Assembly (NCBI RefSeq): GCF_009914755.1
Contig: NC_060927.1
DNA: 64,000 bases
From: the human T2T-CHM13v2.0 reference genome, Homo sapiens
Direction: 5' to 3' (one strand)
A program made the translations under genes and the position numbers. The notes below the pieces were generated by a model. That model did not search any database and had not been told where the DNA came from. It saw nothing but the letters and a program-made list of their open reading frames with translations. Positions 44,601 through 49,721 of this stretch are shown one piece after another; position 1 is the stretch's first letter, and each line of letters begins with the position of its first letter.

Positions 44601-45267
44601 CTGGGAATAAGACAGGCAGCCAGTCAGCCTCCGTGGAATTCCCAGGCAGCTTGCAGGAGCCACAGCGGGCCCTGGGCTCTGAGAAGGTCTGAGGCCCAGC
44701 AGGCGCAGGGGCCTAAACTATTTATCGGCAAGGAGGAAGGAAGGTTCATCCAGAACGTGGATCCCCTTCCTCCTTCTCACACCTCACAAGGTCACAGCGA
44801 GGTGGCTGGGAGGAGAGCCAGGGACTTTTCACTGAGGTGTGTGGGAGACAGCTTGGCAGCCCTTGGACTCTGAAGGGAGGAGGTGGTGGGAAGGAGGGCA
44901 GCTTCGGAACTTCCCAGTTCCTGCTTGATGACCTGTGTGTAAAGTATTCCTGTTTAGGTCTCAAAATCCTCTCAGAAACATAATTCTCAGAAAATCCAGG
45001 CACCCAATCCAGCTCCCTGGCCTTCCCTGAAATCTGAAGTCAAAGGGGCTGAGCCAGCCTGCCCTGGGTGTCAGGCCTCTGAGCCCAAGCTAAGCCATCA
45101 TATCCCCTGTGACCTGCACCTACACATCCAGATGGCAGGTTCCTGCCTTAACTGATGACATTCCACCACAAAAGAAGTGAAAATGAAAAGGCACACAGCG
45201 CTGGCACAGGCGCTGGGAGGCGCACAGGAGACCTCAGGCCCAGGCTCCACTCCCCAGCTGTGAAAGG

Positions 45268-45402
45268 ACCGCTGGCTGGACCCCCAAGCTAGCCCACCAG
45301 GCCTCCATAGAGCTGCTCAGCATGGCCGTGGCCAGTACCAAGAGACGGTGGGAGACGGGTGAGGTACAGGCTCAGTCTGCGGCCAAGACTCTGTCCTGCA
45401 AG
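45268..45402 (+). pseudogene. LSP1: LSP1-derived exon
   Basis: Translates to TAGWTPKLAHQASIELLSMAVASTKRRWETGEVQAQSAAKTLSCK, versus LSP1 TAGRTPKLARQASIELPSMAVASTKSRWETGEVQAQSAAKTPSCK as recalled. The symbol names the parent gene. Confidence 0.92.
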
Positions 45403-45481
45403 ATGAAGGTAATGAAACAGAAGTGCAGCCACAACAAAACAGCCAGTTAATGTGGAAACAAGGTCGACAACTACTCAGACA
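45403..45481 (+). pseudogene. STRN: Striatin (STRN)-derived exon
   Basis: Translates to (D)[26 protein letters not shown], matching striatin as recalled. The symbol names the parent gene. Confidence 0.9.
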
Positions 45482-45651
45482 GCGTCATGATATGTTAACA
45501 GAAGGTAGTTCAGTTTCTCCAGATTACCACAGAAGACAGCTCTGTGGATCCTCCTCAGATGAGATGATTTAATGTGGTATTGGGGAAATGAGAAGCCATC
45601 TGAGCACAAGCGCTCCCTGAGGGTGGGCCACCACTCTGGCTCGTCTTCCAT
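45482..45651 (-). pseudogene. ANKRD36: ANKRD36-family exon 1 coding fragment
   Basis: [57 protein letters not shown] versus ANKRD36 [58 protein letters not shown] as recalled. The symbol names the family. Confidence 0.88.
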
Positions 45652-46600
45652 AATCGTCGCTGCAAATTGTAGCCTGGGAACGCTCCAGCCGTATTTCAGC
45701 TTGCCTTCGGGCATCGCCGCCTCCGAAGCGCAACAACAAGCAATGCAGTCTGTCCACGGACCTTCGCACAGACTCTCAGCGCCTCCCGCCTCTCAGCAGA
45801 AACGCCCAACAGAACGGTTAGGACCAGTGAGCAGGCGCACCTTAGCTGGTCCGAGCAACAGGCCCCAGGCAGAGAAACCGCCCTAGCAGCTGTCTCGTGG
45901 TGCCCAGTGCAGGTGGCGGTTGCTGCTCAGGTGCCTCGGGCTGGCGGGGCTCCCTGGAGCGCGAGGCGCGCCCTGCCCCAGGGCCTGTTTGACTGTCGCC
46001 CGCTCGCTCTTCTCCTCTTCCACCGGCTCCCGATGCTCTGAGCCCCCCGCGCTGGGCCCTCTGCAGCCCAGGGATGGGGTTGAGTGGTGCTTCTCTGCCT
46101 GGTGCCGCCGCTGGGCCCACAGCCCTGCTTCGTCACTGCGTCGCCCCCGGGGTCCGCGCTGATGGGCGCGAGGCGCGAGGATGGGATCCGGGTTTGCCAC
46201 CGCTGCAGCCAGCGCACCACTTGCAGGTGGCAGCTGCAGCTCGGGCTCCGGCCGGGGCTGGCGGGGCTCCCCTGGGATGGCCTCCTGGGCCCTGAGTGTG
46301 CCGCCCATCCGGCCAGAGGGTGCGCGCCTCCTGCACCCCGGGCCGAAGCCCATGCCCGGAGCTCCCGCCGCAGACTACCTGACTTGCCGCGGCTGGGCTG
46401 GCCCCCGGGGTCCGCGCGGCTGGAGGCGCCCGCCTCCTCGGGGATTCCCAATCCTCGGCGACCCCTGCTCAATGTGGCGGCTGCAGCTGCAGCGCCCGTG
46501 GGCTGACGTGGCTTCCGGGAGCTGCGGCCGGCCACGCCCGAGGGCCCCACAGGCTGCGCTGCCCTTGCCAGCTGCTCCTGACTGGCACCCAGAGAGCAGG
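45650..46600. promoter_or_regulatory. CpG island upstream of the ANKRD36-like start codon
   Basis: Visibly GC- and CpG-rich compared with the rest of the window. Confidence 0.7.
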
Positions 46601-47197
46601 ATCTGGCACTTGGCACTCTGCAGCCACGGGGATGAGGCTGAGCACTGGTTCTCGGCCTCATGGCGCCGCTGGGGCCACAGCCTGACTTCACCTCCCCTTC
46701 ACCCAAGTCGTGTGATGGGCACGTGTGAGGAGGGGCAATCGGGGTTCCCAAGGCTGCTGCCTGCATGTCACTCCGTGGCCACTAGGATAGGGCTGAGGAG
46801 CTACCAGGGGATGAGCACATTGTGGCCATCAGGATGGGGCTGAGAGTCTATCTTTATCCTTATGCACCTGCCCAGCCGACTTCCCGACAGCCACTACTGC
46901 AGCGTCCTGTCAGGGAGTCCTTGCTGTTGGGGCTGGGATGGGGAGGGCATGGAGAATCAGGGATGGTCTGGCCATTGCTGCTGGTGCCTGATGTGCAGGT
47001 GGCAGCTGCACCTAGGGCATGGGCTGGTAGTTCTTCTCTTTTGGATGGTTTCCAGGTGGCCCATTGTGCTGTGACCAAGCCAGAGGGTCCACTCCACCTT
47101 AGCCCACACTAGGAGTCCAGGGGCTACAGGCGTGGGTACTGTGTGGCCAACCAGAAGGGGCTCAGCAGCCAGTTCGGCTTTCCTGCCTTTGCAGGGC

Positions 47198-47908
47198 TTT
47201 TTTAAATTTTTTTTTTATTTAACATTTTCTAAAAATACCTACGAACAAAAAGATGCATATCAAACACATTAGGAAGGTTGCACATGGGAAGACGGGGAAT
47301 AGAAATGGGGGTGAGAATGAAAGAAAAATAAATGAGACAGGAACTTTGTATGGATCAATGATAATAACTCAATCCTCTATGTCTTTGACAAGAAGGAGAA
47401 GGAAGAGGAAGAAAAAGAAAGTGGGATAAAGGATCAGAAAGGGAGGAAAATAGAAAAACTTAGAGTATAACTCCAGGGTAGACCTGTTTTGTTGTTGCTG
47501 GGTTGGTTGGTTGGTTGCTTTGTTGTAATTTTCATATGTTTCGCCATGTTGGCCAGGCTGGTCTCGAACCCCTAGCCTCAAGTGATCAACCTGCCTCGGC
47601 CTCCCAGAGTGCTGGGATTACAGGCATGAGCCACCACGTCCAGCCCCCACACTGCGTCTGGCATCCGTGGTAGACCTCCCAGACAGAGCAGCCGGGCAGA
47701 GGCGCTCCTCAGTTCCCAGATGGGGTGGCCAGGCAGAGGCGCTCCTCACATCCCAGACGATGGGCGGCCGGGCAGAGGCTCTCCTCACTGCCCAGACGAT
47801 GGGCGGCCGGGCAGAGGCGCTCCTCACTTCCCAGACGGGGTGGCCGGGCAGAAGGGCTCCTCACTTTCCAGACGGCGAGGCCGGGCAGAGGCTCTCCTCA
47901 CATCCCAG
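47198..47908 (-). mobile_element. 5'-truncated VNTR-composite retroelement, LAVA-like (VNTR-U1-Alu fragment-U2-L1-like-polyA)
   Basis: Minus strand: six SVA-type VNTR units (47676-47908), GTCTACCACGGATGCCAGACGCAGTGTGG, sense Alu left arm (47538-47645), pyrimidine-rich unique segment, AATAAA/poly(A) (T-run 47198-47220 on +). Confidence 0.75.
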
Positions 47909-48242
47909 ATCCACAAAAGAAGTGAAAATAGCCTTAACTGATGACATTCCACCATTGTGATTTGTTTCTGCCCCACCCTAACTGATGTACTTTGTAATCT
48001 CCAACACCCTTAAGAAAGTTCTTTGTAATCTCCCTCACCCTTGAGAAGGTTCTTTGTAATTTATAATTCTCCCCACCCTTGAGAATGTACTTTGTGAGAT
48101 CCACCTCCTGCCCACAAAACATTGCTCCTAACTCCACCGCCTATCCCAAAACCTTTAAGAATTAATGATAATCCCATCACCCTTTGCTCTCTTTTCGGAC
48201 TCGGCCTGCCTGCACCCAGGTGAAATAAACAGCCTTGTTGCT
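47909..48242 (+). mobile_element. LTR7B-type HERV-H LTR fragment ending at its poly(A) site
   Basis: atccacaaaagaagtgaaaatagcc, repeated ctttgtaat...cacccttgagaa units, cacccaggtgaaataaacagccttgttgct, then poly(A); U5 absent. Confidence 0.88.
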
Positions 48243-49721
48243 GGAAAAAAAAAAAAAAAAAAGAAAGAAAAGTGAAAATGGCCTGTTCCTGCCTTAACTG
48301 ATGACATTGTCTTGTGAAATTCCTTCTCCTGGCTCATCCTGGCTCAAAACCTCCCACACTGAGTACCTTGTGACCCCCACTCTGCCCACCAGAGAACAAC
48401 CCCCCTTTGACTGTAATTTTCCTTTACCTATGCAAATCCTATAAAACGGCCCCACGCCTGTCTCCCTTCACTGACTCTCTTTTCAGACTCAGCCCGCCTG
48501 CACCCAGGTGAAATAAACAGCCATGTTGCTCACACAAAGCCTGTTTGGTGGCCTCTTCACATGGACGCGCATGAAAGTGGGGTCCTCATGCCCACCAGTC
48601 CAGAGTGCTCTCTAGAGGAAGGCTACAGACACTTCCTGGCTCACTCATCCAGATGTTAGCTGTCTTGGTGAAACTCCTTTTTTCACCCTTGAAAACCACT
48701 GGAAGAATGGCCAAGAACCCAGCTATCCTGAGTAAGTTCACTTAGAGAAGCAAAATCTAACATGAGTGGCAAAATGGACATTGGCACCAGGAGTGTGGGT
48801 CAGAATCCTGCCCCTTGGAACTACATCATCGCTTGTACAGTGTACCCCCCAGGCACCAAGAGACCAGGCCGAGACCCTTCAGTGTCCCTGGGCCTCTGGT
48901 CAGTGTCTTCCCACCTGGCACACAGGCAGGCCCTCATAAAACAATGAGTACTGAAAGTTCCTGCCTTCTTGGTGGGTTCTCAGCACCCCGTCGTGAGCCA
49001 CACCCTGACCCAGGGAAATCAGGATCACCCTGATGCTACCCGTAGGCTAGTGCCCCTTCTGAAGTGCCCCAGGCTGGCACCCCTATACTTAGATCTCTTC
49101 AGCCTCCTCATGAAAACCTTCTTGTCCATCACCCCAGCAGTCCCCACACTGTGCAAAATGAGCAGCTGACCACACGTCAAATCAATTTTCAGAGTTTGCC
49201 TTTGGTTTAATATTGACGGCTCATCCAAAAGATCTTGTCACTATAGCTAGATGAAAAAAATGACAAGGCTCTGGAGAAGCAGAGCCACAACATGGAAGAT
49301 ACCTGGGTCCCAGGTTCATGAGGAGAGGAGCTGCCTGCTCCACAGACTGTCACATGAGTGGGAATGAAACTTTTTCTGCGTTTAGACCATTACCTTTCTT
49401 CAGTCTGTCCCATAGTCTACCCCCGCTAAACAGAACTTGACCTCCACCAGACCGTTTACATCAAGACCTGTATGTGCAGTGCAGTGGCCTGAGCCTCCAA
49501 TCCATGCCCCACCTATCCAACCGGCCTTGCCATATTCTTACTCTGAGAGTGGTATTCTGGGGACAGAAGCTCAGTGCATAGAATTGACTAATGCCAGATC
49601 CTTCAGGCGCTTTGCACTTTGAAGTCTATCTGTCCTAGCACATTCCAAGTACAAAGAAGACACTTCAACAGTACAACCTGGCCTACACTCAGTTCAATTC
49701 CTTCTTCAAAAACCTAGGCCC

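What the first reader, a model, noticed from the sequence alone, without database searches (positions are those of the whole stretch)
45186..48280. Five-source chimeric mRNA retroposed into an LTR7: LSP1 + STRN + antisense ANKRD36 + VNTR composite + LTR7B poly(A)
Seen: the LTR7 is cut at gaagtgaaaatg (45185) and resumes at 48281. An 11-bp repeat aagtgaaaatg flanks ~3.1 kb that ends in aataaa plus A18. Inside, an LSP1-like 135-nt block abuts a 79-nt STRN-like block with no intron, followed by ANKRD36-like exon 1 in antisense. Known: a TSD at an A-rich site plus poly(A) and fused exons is the signature of L1 target-primed reverse transcription. Inference: a duplication mosaic elsewhere transcribes exons of three unrelated genes as one spliced RNA, which was germline-expressed and mobilised as a unit, a case of exon shuffling by SD plus retroposition. 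LSP1 pseudogenes are already annotated in human, so part of this may be labelled, but the full composite architecture may not be.
Basis: partly seen in the sequence, partly recalled or inferred. Interest (0 to 1): 0.85.

Follow-up and report, generated by a model that had tools for sequence, protein, structure and literature searches.

The report
Retrocopy of a lost LSP1–STRN fusion transcript
A 3.1-kb stretch inside an old retroviral LTR is an L1-made DNA copy of a spliced RNA that joined exons of LSP1 and STRN to an antisense ANKRD36-type promoter region, and three sister copies elsewhere in the genome preserve other splice forms of a parent gene that this assembly no longer holds.

Summary
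Window 45186-48262 is flanked by an exact 11-bp duplication, ends in AATAAA plus A18, and interrupts a solo HERVH-type LTR. That LTR is uninterrupted, with one copy of the 11-mer, in 6 of 6 LTR-bearing paralogous duplicons.

The insert is one of four independent insertions (chr3, chr5, chr13, and chr9, the last later triplicated by segmental duplication). All four start at the same transcription start and end at the same LTR7 poly(A) site. Each carries a different splice form. They differ in one optional LSP1 exon, two optional STRN exons and two acceptors 20 nt apart. Every exon border that could be read in a source locus is GT-AG except one acceptor.

Intron-containing DNA copies of the LSP1 and STRN fragments lie on one strand, 165-180 kb apart, in pericentromeric chr1 and chr2 duplications. 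No locus in T2T-CHM13 holds all the parts.

The 2.8-kb last exon is a genomic mosaic: antisense ANKRD36-like exon 1 and CpG island, a 9q-derived piece, SVA-type VNTR units, and the 3' part of an LTR7.

Verdict: a processed retrocopy of a chimeric transcript. The kind is known, but this family is apparently undescribed. Moderate interest.

The parts
45069..45185 (+). 5' part of the host solo HERVH-type LTR (starts tgtcagg)
   Evidence: Matches many LTRs at about 98%, including pairs about 5.2 kb apart. Continuous with 48281 onward in 6 of 6 LTR-bearing paralogues.
45175..45185 (+). Left target-site duplication aagtgaaaatg (possibly from 45170)
   Evidence: Present once in each empty paralogous site.
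45186..45267 (+). Exon A: non-coding first exon starting at the shared transcription start AAAGGCAC
   Evidence: 90-92% to chr1:143.8M and chr2:91.85M, where it is followed by GT and lies about 4.4 kb upstream of the LSP1-derived exon.
45268..45402 (+). Exon B: LSP1 exon, 135 nt (annotated LSP1P2)
   Evidence: 94% to chr11 LSP1 and 90-91% to the pericentromeric duplicates. AG before and GT after in both genomic sources read.
45403..45481 (+). Exon C: STRN exon, 79 nt
   Evidence: 100% to chr2:36912676-36912757, flanked there by ...ttctag| and |gtaagt.
45482..47197 (+). Block D: antisense copy of an ANKRD36-like exon 1 (ATG at 45651-45649 on the minus strand), its CpG island and upstream DNA. 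This is the start of the terminal exon.
   Evidence: 89-90% to chr2:88.77M (reaching 47197) and to chr2:96.3M, 97.6M and 98.0M (reaching about 46777). Open antisense frame. GC 0.667, CpG o/e 0.65 over 1296 nt.
47198..47220 (+). T-rich linker (A-rich on the minus strand)
   Evidence: Present with small differences in all six family copies. Absent from chr2:88.77M and from the 9q source.
47221..47677 (+). Block E: copy of single-copy 9q DNA. It includes an antisense Alu monomer (about 47540-47645) between 9-nt direct repeats GGTAGACCT (47477-47485 and 47669-47677).
   Evidence: 91-93% to chr9:108435613-108436071. Found only there and in the six family copies: 8 of 8 candidates scored, the eighth a weak 95-nt hit.
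47677..47909 (+). Block F: VNTR, 37-bp units x 6.2. The minus strand reads as TCTGGGA-N-GTGAGGAG... units.
   Evidence: Matches long VNTR arrays genome-wide at 91% or less, but its two flanking junctions occur only in family copies among the 40 of 3126 candidates scored.
47907..48244 (+). Block G: 3' part of an LTR7-type LTR, from about LTR position 100 to the poly(A) site. AATAAA at 48224-48229.
   Evidence: Best match 96%, a solo LTR at chrX:151956269. Many others about 90%.
48245..48262 (+). Poly(A) tail, A18
   Evidence: The sister copies have A16-A20 at the same LTR position.
48270..48280 (+). Right target-site duplication aagtgaaaatg (possibly from 48264)
48281..48577 (+). 3' part of the host solo LTR
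   Evidence: The chr21 paralogue lacks the whole LTR.

Best explanation
Window 45186-48262 is a dead, full-length, L1-made retrocopy (processed pseudogene) of a polyadenylated, spliced, chimeric RNA.

The RNA came from an intron-containing mosaic gene built by segmental duplication. That gene had these parts:
- a GC-rich promoter and non-coding first exon;
- two exons copied from LSP1;
- three exons copied from STRN;
- a 2.8-kb last exon that ran antisense through an ANKRD36-type exon 1 and CpG island, then through a 9q-derived piece and an SVA-type VNTR, and ended at the poly(A) signal of an LTR7.

The gene was expressed in the germ line over a long period. L1 copied its RNA at least four times, each time from a different splice form. 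The copy in this window (exons A-B-C-D, upstream acceptor) landed at an A-rich site of a solo HERVH LTR in one OR7E duplicon, after that duplicon had separated from its closest paralogue.

Shown: TSD, poly(A), empty site, exon borders, sister copies and their splice forms, and DNA duplicates of the LSP1 and STRN fragments.

Inferred: the full structure of the parent, which this assembly does not hold; germ-line expression; and L1 as the enzyme.
For: 1. Insertion hallmarks: exact 11-bp TSD, A18 after AATAAA, and a target that reads CTTTT/GTGG on the bottom strand.

2. Empty site: 6 of 6 LTR-bearing paralogues are uninterrupted. These are 6 of the 7 paralogous places found, examined.

3. Sister insertions:
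- chr9, three copies sharing the same alpha-satellite-like flanks and TSD TAGACAAAAG;
- chr13, TSD TTTAGCACA after an A run;
- chr5, TSD unclear.
All have poly(A) at the same LTR position and a 5' end at or within about 10 nt of AAAGGCAC.

4. Exon borders read in source loci:
- A|gt in 3 of 3 genomic A copies read;
- ag|B|gt in chr11 LSP1 and in the chr2 duplicate;
- ag|B2|gt;
- ag|C0a|gt;
- ag|C0b|gt;
- ag|C|gt.

5. Four splice forms:
- chr9: A-B-C-D, acceptor 2;
- chr3: A-B-C-D, acceptor 1;
- chr13: A-B-C0a-C0b-C-D, acceptor 2;
- chr5: A-B-B2-C0a-C0b-C-D, acceptor 1.
Acceptor 2 follows an AG kept in 4 of 4 ANKRD36-like paralogues.

6. Six pericentromeric places (chr1 x3, chr2 x2, chrY) match the STRN C0a exon plus both intron flanks over all 345 nt at 94-95%. 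The retrocopies match the exon only. On chr1 (three places) and chr2 (one) these copies lie 165-180 kb downstream of, and on the same strand as, the A, B and B2 exons.

7. All six family copies share identical D/E, E/F and F/G junctions.
Against: No locus with all blocks was found in T2T-CHM13. Most of these searches scored only the 40 best candidates. Withheld stretches of the genome would also be missed.

Acceptor 1, the one used by this window's copy, is preceded by TG in 4 of 4 extant paralogues. It needs either a change in the lost parent or a non-canonical acceptor.

STRN exons C0b and C have no genomic duplicate in this assembly.

Shared non-CpG changes among copies conflict with a single ladder-like master lineage: chr3+chr9 share 9, chr13+chr9 share 6, chr5+chr13 share 3. 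This hints at more than one source allele or copy, or at gene conversion.

The chr5 TSD is not resolved.
Confidence: 0.9

Rival explanations
1. The chimera was made during reverse transcription. L1 reverse transcriptase switched templates between separate LSP1, STRN and other RNAs, so no chimeric gene ever existed.
For: The D/E, E/F and F/G junctions are not GT-AG junctions on the plus strand. Acceptor 1 lacks an AG in extant paralogues.
Against: All 5' junctions fall exactly on exon borders. Four independent insertions share the non-splice junctions base for base. They differ only by whole exons or by a 20-nt step ending at a conserved AG. Exon A and the LSP1 exons are linked in genomic DNA.
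Confidence: 0.03
2. The element is a self-propagating composite retrotransposon of the SVA kind, in which retrocopies themselves served as sources for later copies.
For: Four full-length insertions of a non-coding-looking RNA. The parts resemble SVA: an antisense Alu piece, an SVA-type VNTR, and an LTR-derived 3' end with a poly(A) signal. The insert carries a CpG island.
Against: Copies with more exons cannot descend from intron-less copies with fewer, and the four copies carry four splice forms. There is no CT-hexamer 5' end. The VNTR is in the opposite orientation to the RNA compared with what I recall of SVA. There are only four insertions and no 5'-truncated copies: 8 of 8 block-E candidates are accounted for.
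Confidence: 0.05
3. The insert arrived as DNA, by segmental duplication or gene conversion between LTR7 copies, not through RNA.
For: The host cut lies within a 19-nt string, CCACAAAAGAAGTGAAAAT, that also opens the insert's own LTR7 block (family D15).
Against: The poly(A) tail sits exactly at the LTR poly(A) site. The TSD is perfect and introns are lost. The flanks at the chr9 and chr13 sister sites are unrelated to those here.
Confidence: 0.01

Closest known systems
Retrocopies of intergenically spliced or read-through transcripts, such as the hominoid PIPSL retrogene. The example is recalled; I saw the Ohshima & Igarashi 2010 entry only in the reference list of PMC5470649, where I also read the passages of the section 'Chimeric Retrogenes'.
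   Same: One spliced RNA that joins exons of unrelated genes is copied by L1 into a new site, with poly(A) and a TSD.
   Different: The parent here is a duplication-built mosaic of gene fragments, not two neighbouring intact genes. It is absent from the assembly. It gave four insertions with four splice forms. Most of the RNA is a non-coding mosaic last exon.
SVA_F1 / MAST2-SVA (Bantysh & Buzdin 2009 seen only as an entry in the reference list of PMC5753468; the content is recalled)
   Same: A host-gene exon is spliced onto a VNTR-bearing, LTR-terminated RNA, and the product is mobilised by L1.
   Different: No CT-hexamer or SVA Alu-like 5' domain. The VNTR is antisense. The 3' end is LTR7, not SINE-R. 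The variants need an intron-bearing parent, so this is not a propagating subfamily.
[quoted passage not shown]
   Same: Read on the minus strand, blocks F and E form a VNTR joined to non-repetitive DNA that holds an Alu monomer, followed by an A-rich tract. The joint sits where a VNTR unit would offer AG|GTGAGG and where the 9q source has ...atag|.
   Different: It is 5'-truncated within the VNTR. There is no TSD and no clear AATAAA at the source end. It exists only as a nested piece of this family. By my recall the Alu piece looks like a left monomer, not a FRAM.
LSP1P5, a transcribed multi-exon lncRNA from an LSP1 pseudogene (PMC11184311, passages read: three RefSeq transcripts share the second exon; RACE gave a four-exon RNA of 1,118 bp)
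   Same: It shows that LSP1-derived duplicates can be spliced transcription units today, as the lost parent is inferred to have been.
   Different: I could not see its sequence or locus, so I cannot say whether its exons equal A, B, B2 or the STRN-derived exon.

Membership tests
L1-mediated processed retrocopy | Target-site duplication flanking the insert | tested here: met
   Exact 11 bp at 45175-45185 and 48270-48280. A single copy is present in 6 of 6 LTR-bearing paralogues.
L1-mediated processed retrocopy | Poly(A) tail directly after a poly(A) signal and cleavage site | tested here: met
   AATAAA at 48224-48229 and A18 at 48245-48262. Same position in the chr5, chr9 and chr13 copies.
L1-mediated processed retrocopy | Introns removed at exact exon borders | tested here: met
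   The A|B, B|C and C-donor borders, and in the sister copies the B|B2, B2|C0a, B|C0a, C0a|C0b and C0b|C borders, all coincide with GT-AG borders in genomic sources. Exception: acceptor 1 in block D has TG in 4 of 4 extant paralogues.
L1-mediated processed retrocopy | A-rich / T-rich endonuclease-type target | tested here: met
   The empty site reads CCAC|AAAAGAAGTGAAAATG|G. The L1 endonuclease consensus itself is recalled.
L1-mediated processed retrocopy | Identifiable intron-containing parent gene | tested here: inconclusive
   Partial parents only. A, B and B2 with introns are on chr1 and chr2 pericentromeres. A STRN exon with its introns lies 165-180 kb downstream on the same strand. No locus holds all blocks.
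SVA / VNTR-composite retrotransposon | 5' CT-hexamer repeat and Alu-like domain upstream of the VNTR | tested here: not met
   The 5' end is exon A plus gene exons. The only Alu piece belongs to the 9q block.
SVA / VNTR-composite retrotransposon | VNTR in sense orientation followed by a SINE-R (HERV-K-derived) 3' end | tested here: not met
   The units read as TCTGGGA-N-GTGAGG only on the minus strand. The 3' end matches LTR7-type LTRs. The SVA orientation is recalled, not tested.
RT template-switch chimera | Junctions at arbitrary positions of the partner RNAs, arising per insertion event | tested here: not met
   Junctions lie at exon borders, and the non-splice junctions are identical in four independent insertions.
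ANKRD36 gene family (block D, antisense) | Homology to ANKRD36 exon 1 and promoter | not testable with these tools
Four chr2 loci match at 89-90% and the antisense frame is open. Pfam gave no ankyrin hit on the 57 residues.
HERVH LTR7 (host LTR and block G) | LTR7-type sequence; subfamily (LTR7 versus LTR7B) | tested here: inconclusive
   The host 5' 117 nt match many loci at about 98%, including pairs about 5.2 kb apart. Block G matches many LTRs at about 90%, best 96%. No repeat library was on hand to name subfamilies.

The most novel reading that the evidence does not exclude
The four retrocopies are the only trace in this assembly of a lost hominoid fusion gene. Its longer splice forms read LSP1 and STRN exons in one frame, open from exon A into block D in the chr5 form except for one stop.

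Its last exon held, nested in antisense, a VNTR-composite retroelement that had captured a 9q 3' end by splicing. That would be a human-lineage sister of the gibbon PVA and FVA elements.

Because the RNA ran antisense through a whole ANKRD36-type CpG-island promoter, each retroposition also copied a complete promoter to a new locus.
Probability: 0.2. Interest if true: 0.65.

Novelty: new member of a known kind. Interest (0 to 1): 0.42.

Why it matters
The family is a small natural record of alternative splicing in a gene that the complete human assembly no longer contains. Four retrocopies fix four splice forms of a duplication-born LSP1-STRN chimera.

It shows three things:
- how pericentromeric duplication mosaics can create spliced fusion transcripts;
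- that such transcripts reached the germ line repeatedly;
- that retroposition can preserve them after the parent is gone.

It also tells annotators that LSP1P2, and probably other LSP1P entries, are 135-nt labels on elements of 3.1 kb or more. Those elements also hold STRN exons, an ANKRD36-type CpG island, a VNTR and an LTR7 end. I found no paper describing this architecture. One search found 44 papers naming an LSP1P gene, of which 20 were listed. One search returned one unrelated paper for LSP1, STRN, ANKRD36 and retrocopy terms. Subscription journals are not covered.

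Tried and rejected
- Rfam gave no match in 44000-49500.
- I suspected a fixed link between an Alu piece and LTR7 because several LTR7 hits had a nearby match to 47538-47645. Reading chrX:151.95M showed ordinary neighbouring Alus, so I dropped the idea.
- I asked whether block E is the SVA2 3' unique sequence. That sequence is used in PMC4432496 to retrieve 30 elements per species. 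Block E occurs only in the six family copies and one 9q locus, so it is not.
- Membership of FVA was rejected. By recall the Alu piece is of the left-monomer type, and nothing else could be compared.
- Parent search: 40 kb around chr2:88.77M, 30 kb around chr2:89.6M and 10 kb around chr9:108.43M hold no further blocks.
- The STRN exon C region (3 kb) has no long duplicate among the 40 of 26,730 candidates scored.
- Pfam on the antisense 57-residue peptide gave only a sub-threshold, unrelated hit.
- A tree of block D does not place the retrocopies in a clean clade apart from the chr2 paralogues. It is unrooted, so I draw no order of events from it.
- CpG retention was computed: 71% in chr3 and chr5, 83% in chr13, 46-53% in chr9. 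I make no claim about methylation from it.

Full report
**What is in the window.** The host LTR (tgtcagg at 45069) stops at 45185 and resumes at 48281. The 11-mer aagtgaaaatg stands at 45175-45185 and 48270-48280. AATAAA lies at 48224-48229 and is followed by A18 at 48245-48262. With an imperfect A-rich 5' part, the duplication may be 16-17 nt long. Rfam finds nothing here.

**Empty site and order of events.**
- A search with the 1000 nt left of the insert scored 40 of 3903 candidates. It gave seven paralogous duplicon copies: chr3:132.80M (97%), chr4:9.73M, chr4:3.93M, chr11:67.75M, chr7:7.02M and chr11:3.44M (each 96%), and chr21:30.82M (94%).
- In six of them the left and right flanks of the window meet, overlapping by exactly the 11-mer (15 nt in one alignment). 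The LTR is therefore uninterrupted, with one copy of the target.
- chr3:132.80M additionally has a 51-bp tandem duplication next to the site.
- The chr21 copy lacks the whole LTR.
- So the order was: duplicon, then LTR insertion, then spread of the duplicon, then insertion of the 3.1-kb element into the chr3:75.4M copy only.

**It is one of a family.** A genome search with the insert scored 40 of 6163 candidates. It found near-full-length matches at these places:
- chr5:29.03M, 92-93%;
- chr13:24.226M, 92-95%;
- chr9:42.41M, 77.28M and 47.59M, 89-91%.

The three chr9 copies share the same flanks and the same TSD, TAGACAAAAG. They are therefore one insertion that was later duplicated. By my recognition their flanks are alpha-satellite-like. 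The chr13 copy has TTTAGCACA after an A run on both sides. The chr5 TSD is unclear. All copies carry A16-A20 directly after the same ...AAATAAACAGCCTTGTTGCT of the LTR7 block.

The chr3, chr5 and chr9 copies start with AAAAGGC. In genomic copies of exon A the corresponding sequence is ...CCGCCCTCGC|AAAGGCAC. The chr13 copy starts within about 10 nt of that point. These are therefore full-length copies of one RNA species with a defined start and end.

**Exons.** A search with 45186-45520 scored 40 of 44 candidates. Reading the source loci gives the following.
- Exon A (45186-45267) is 90-92% identical to chr1:143.8M and chr2:91.85M. There it is followed by gtaag and lies about 4.4 kb upstream of the LSP1-derived exon.
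- Exon B (45268-45402) is 94% identical to LSP1 on chr11 and 90-91% to six pericentromeric duplicates. It is preceded by ...tctgcag and followed by gtaagg.
- Exon C (45403-45481) is 100% identical to STRN chr2:36912676-36912757. It is preceded by ...ttttctag and followed by gtaagt.

**Extra exons in the sister copies.** The chr5 copy holds three more exons between B and C:
- the next LSP1 exon, B2, 78 nt, with ag|..|gt in chr11 and chr2;
- STRN exon C0a, 105 nt, with ...actcag|..|gtaatt;
- STRN exon C0b, 73 nt, with ...tgttag|..|gtaagc.

The chr13 copy has C0a and C0b but not B2.

**Two acceptors in block D.** At the C/D joint, chr3 and chr5 continue with GCGTCATGAT... The chr9 and chr13 copies continue 20 nt further on, directly after ...AACAG. 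That AG is present in 4 of 4 ANKRD36-like paralogues. The upstream site is preceded by TG in 4 of 4.

**Four splice forms.** The four independent insertions thus carry four splice forms:
- chr9: A-B-C-D, acceptor 2;
- chr3: A-B-C-D, acceptor 1;
- chr13: A-B-C0a-C0b-C-D, acceptor 2;
- chr5: A-B-B2-C0a-C0b-C-D, acceptor 1.

This needs an intron-bearing source gene. It excludes retrocopy-to-retrocopy descent and per-event template switching.

**Reading frames.** In the chr5 and chr13 forms the LSP1 and STRN exons are in one frame. The chr5 frame is open from the first base of exon A into block D, apart from one stop. In this window's form the B-C joint shifts the STRN frame and a stop follows after 15 codons. 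I make no claim that a protein was ever made.

**Source mosaic.**
- A 345-nt query of STRN exon C0a with 120 nt of intron on each side matches six pericentromeric places over its whole length at 94-95%: chr1 x3, chr2 x2 and chrY. Two further chr2 places match the first 145 nt. The chr5 and chr13 retrocopies match the exon only. The STRN fragment was therefore duplicated as DNA.
- At three chr1 places and one chr2 place the STRN copy lies 165-180 kb downstream of exons A, B and B2, on the same strand.
- On chrY an A-like exon with a GT donor sits 137 bp from an ANKRD36-like 5' fragment. A C0a copy lies 45 kb further on.
- Exons C0b and C occur only in STRN itself and in the retrocopies. For one search, 22 of 22 candidates were scored. 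For one search, 40 of 26,730 were scored, and only repeats matched besides the query itself.
- No locus holds D-E-F-G outside the family.

The full parent is therefore missing from this assembly, or lies in a stretch that these searches did not score.

**The last exon.**
- Block D (45482-47197) matches chr2:88.77M contiguously to 47197. It matches three other chr2 loci to about 46777.
- The minus strand of block D starts with an open frame from an ATG. The region has GC 0.667 and CpG o/e 0.65, against 0.73-0.78 in the chr2 loci.
- A 23-nt T-rich linker follows. Then come 457 nt that are 91-93% identical to single-copy DNA at chr9:108435613-108436071. Of 8 block-E candidates, all scored, six are family copies, one is the 9q locus and one is a weak 95-nt hit.
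- Next come 6.2 VNTR units of 37 bp, and then an LTR7-type LTR from about its position 100 to the poly(A) site.
- None of these three joints is GT-AG on the plus strand. All are identical in the six copies. They therefore belonged to the parent's DNA.

**A nested element on the minus strand.** Read on the minus strand, the VNTR units run TCTGGGA-N-GTGAGGAG... The array ends ...TCTGGGAG|GTCTACC. That is exactly where a next unit would begin with GT. The 9q source reads ...AAAATATAG|GTCTACC on the same strand. An A-rich tract follows the 9q piece, and the VNTR/LTR7 joint shares 4 nt (AGAT).

I read blocks F and E as a 5'-truncated VNTR-composite retroelement with a spliced-on 9q 3' end, nested antisense in the parent. 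This is an inference. There is no TSD and no clear poly(A) signal at the 9q end.

**Ages.** At 985 non-CpG columns invariant among the four chr2 paralogues, private changes are 28/984 (chr9), 16/977 (chr3), 15/970 (chr13) and 10/977 (chr5). Ancestral CpGs kept are 46-53%, 71%, 83% and 71% respectively. The chr9 insertion is therefore clearly the oldest.

The chr3 value fits an insertion soon after the host duplicon split from chr3:132.80M (2.9% apart). Absolute dates need an assumed rate and outgroups that I did not have.

Shared changes conflict with a single simple master lineage: chr3+chr9 share 9, chr13+chr9 share 6, and all four share 6.

**Comparison with the known.**
- The mechanism is that of a processed pseudogene. 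The class 'retrocopy of a chimeric transcript' is established (PMC5470649, passages read).
- SVA-type membership fails on the 5' domain, VNTR orientation and 3' end.
- Repbase lists SVA as the only human composite family (PMC5753468, abstract and passages read). PVA, FVA and LAVA are stated to be gibbon-restricted (PMC4432496, passages read). This makes the nested VNTR/9q piece worth a look.
- LSP1P papers found treat these genes as expression markers or lncRNAs. One search found 44 papers, of which 20 were listed; I read passages of one, PMC11184311. None that I saw describes this architecture.
- bioRxiv supplements, and any supplementary figures of PMC11184311, were not seen.

**Not tested.** The ANKRD36 name and the LTR7 subfamily names were not tested, because no human gene or repeat library was available. 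Orthologous sites in other primates and expression were also not tested.

Noticed in passing
window 45166-45184 and 47911-47929: The host LTR was cut inside the 19-nt string CCACAAAAGAAGTGAAAAT. The same string opens the insert's own LTR7 block, right after the VNTR (family D15). It may only reflect that this is the most A-rich site of LTR7-type LTRs, but the coincidence is not explained.
   Followed up: partly
window 45069-48577; locus L028 (chr21:30.82M): The chr21 paralogue of the duplicon lacks the host LTR altogether. It is a pre-LTR empty site and dates the LTR insertion between two rounds of duplication.
   Followed up: partly
locus L022 (chr3:132.80M), about 2470-2570: The closest paralogue has a 51-bp tandem duplication in its LTR that includes the target 11-mer region.
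   Followed up: no
window 45484-45654, minus strand: The antisense ANKRD36-like exon-1 frame is still open from its ATG for 56 codons in this copy. The whole upstream CpG island came with it, so a complete promoter facing the minus strand was retroposed. The predicted lncRNA LOC124905452 (start at 43346, minus strand) lies about 2 kb downstream of it.
   Followed up: no
loci L002 (chr5) and L006 (chr13), 5' parts: In the longer splice forms the LSP1 and STRN exons are in one reading frame. The chr5 frame is open from the first base of exon A into block D, with one stop.
   Followed up: partly
locus L014 (chrY:27219789-27223323) and chrY:27265798-27266142: On chrY an A-like first exon with a GT donor lies 137 bp from an ANKRD36-like 5' fragment that breaks off at insert position 856. 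An intron-containing STRN C0a copy lies 45 kb further on the same strand. This is a third arrangement of the same duplicons.
   Followed up: partly
window 47477-47485 and 47669-47677: Within the 9q-derived block an antisense Alu monomer with a degenerate T-rich tail lies between 9-nt direct repeats, GGTAGACCT. The block ends exactly at the second repeat.
   Followed up: no
window 45186-45230; loci L003, L005, L059: The 5' end of exon A consists of GC-rich units of about 27 nt. Their number differs between copies: one in chr3 and chr1:143.8M, two in chr9a and chr2:91.85M, three in chr9c.
   Followed up: no
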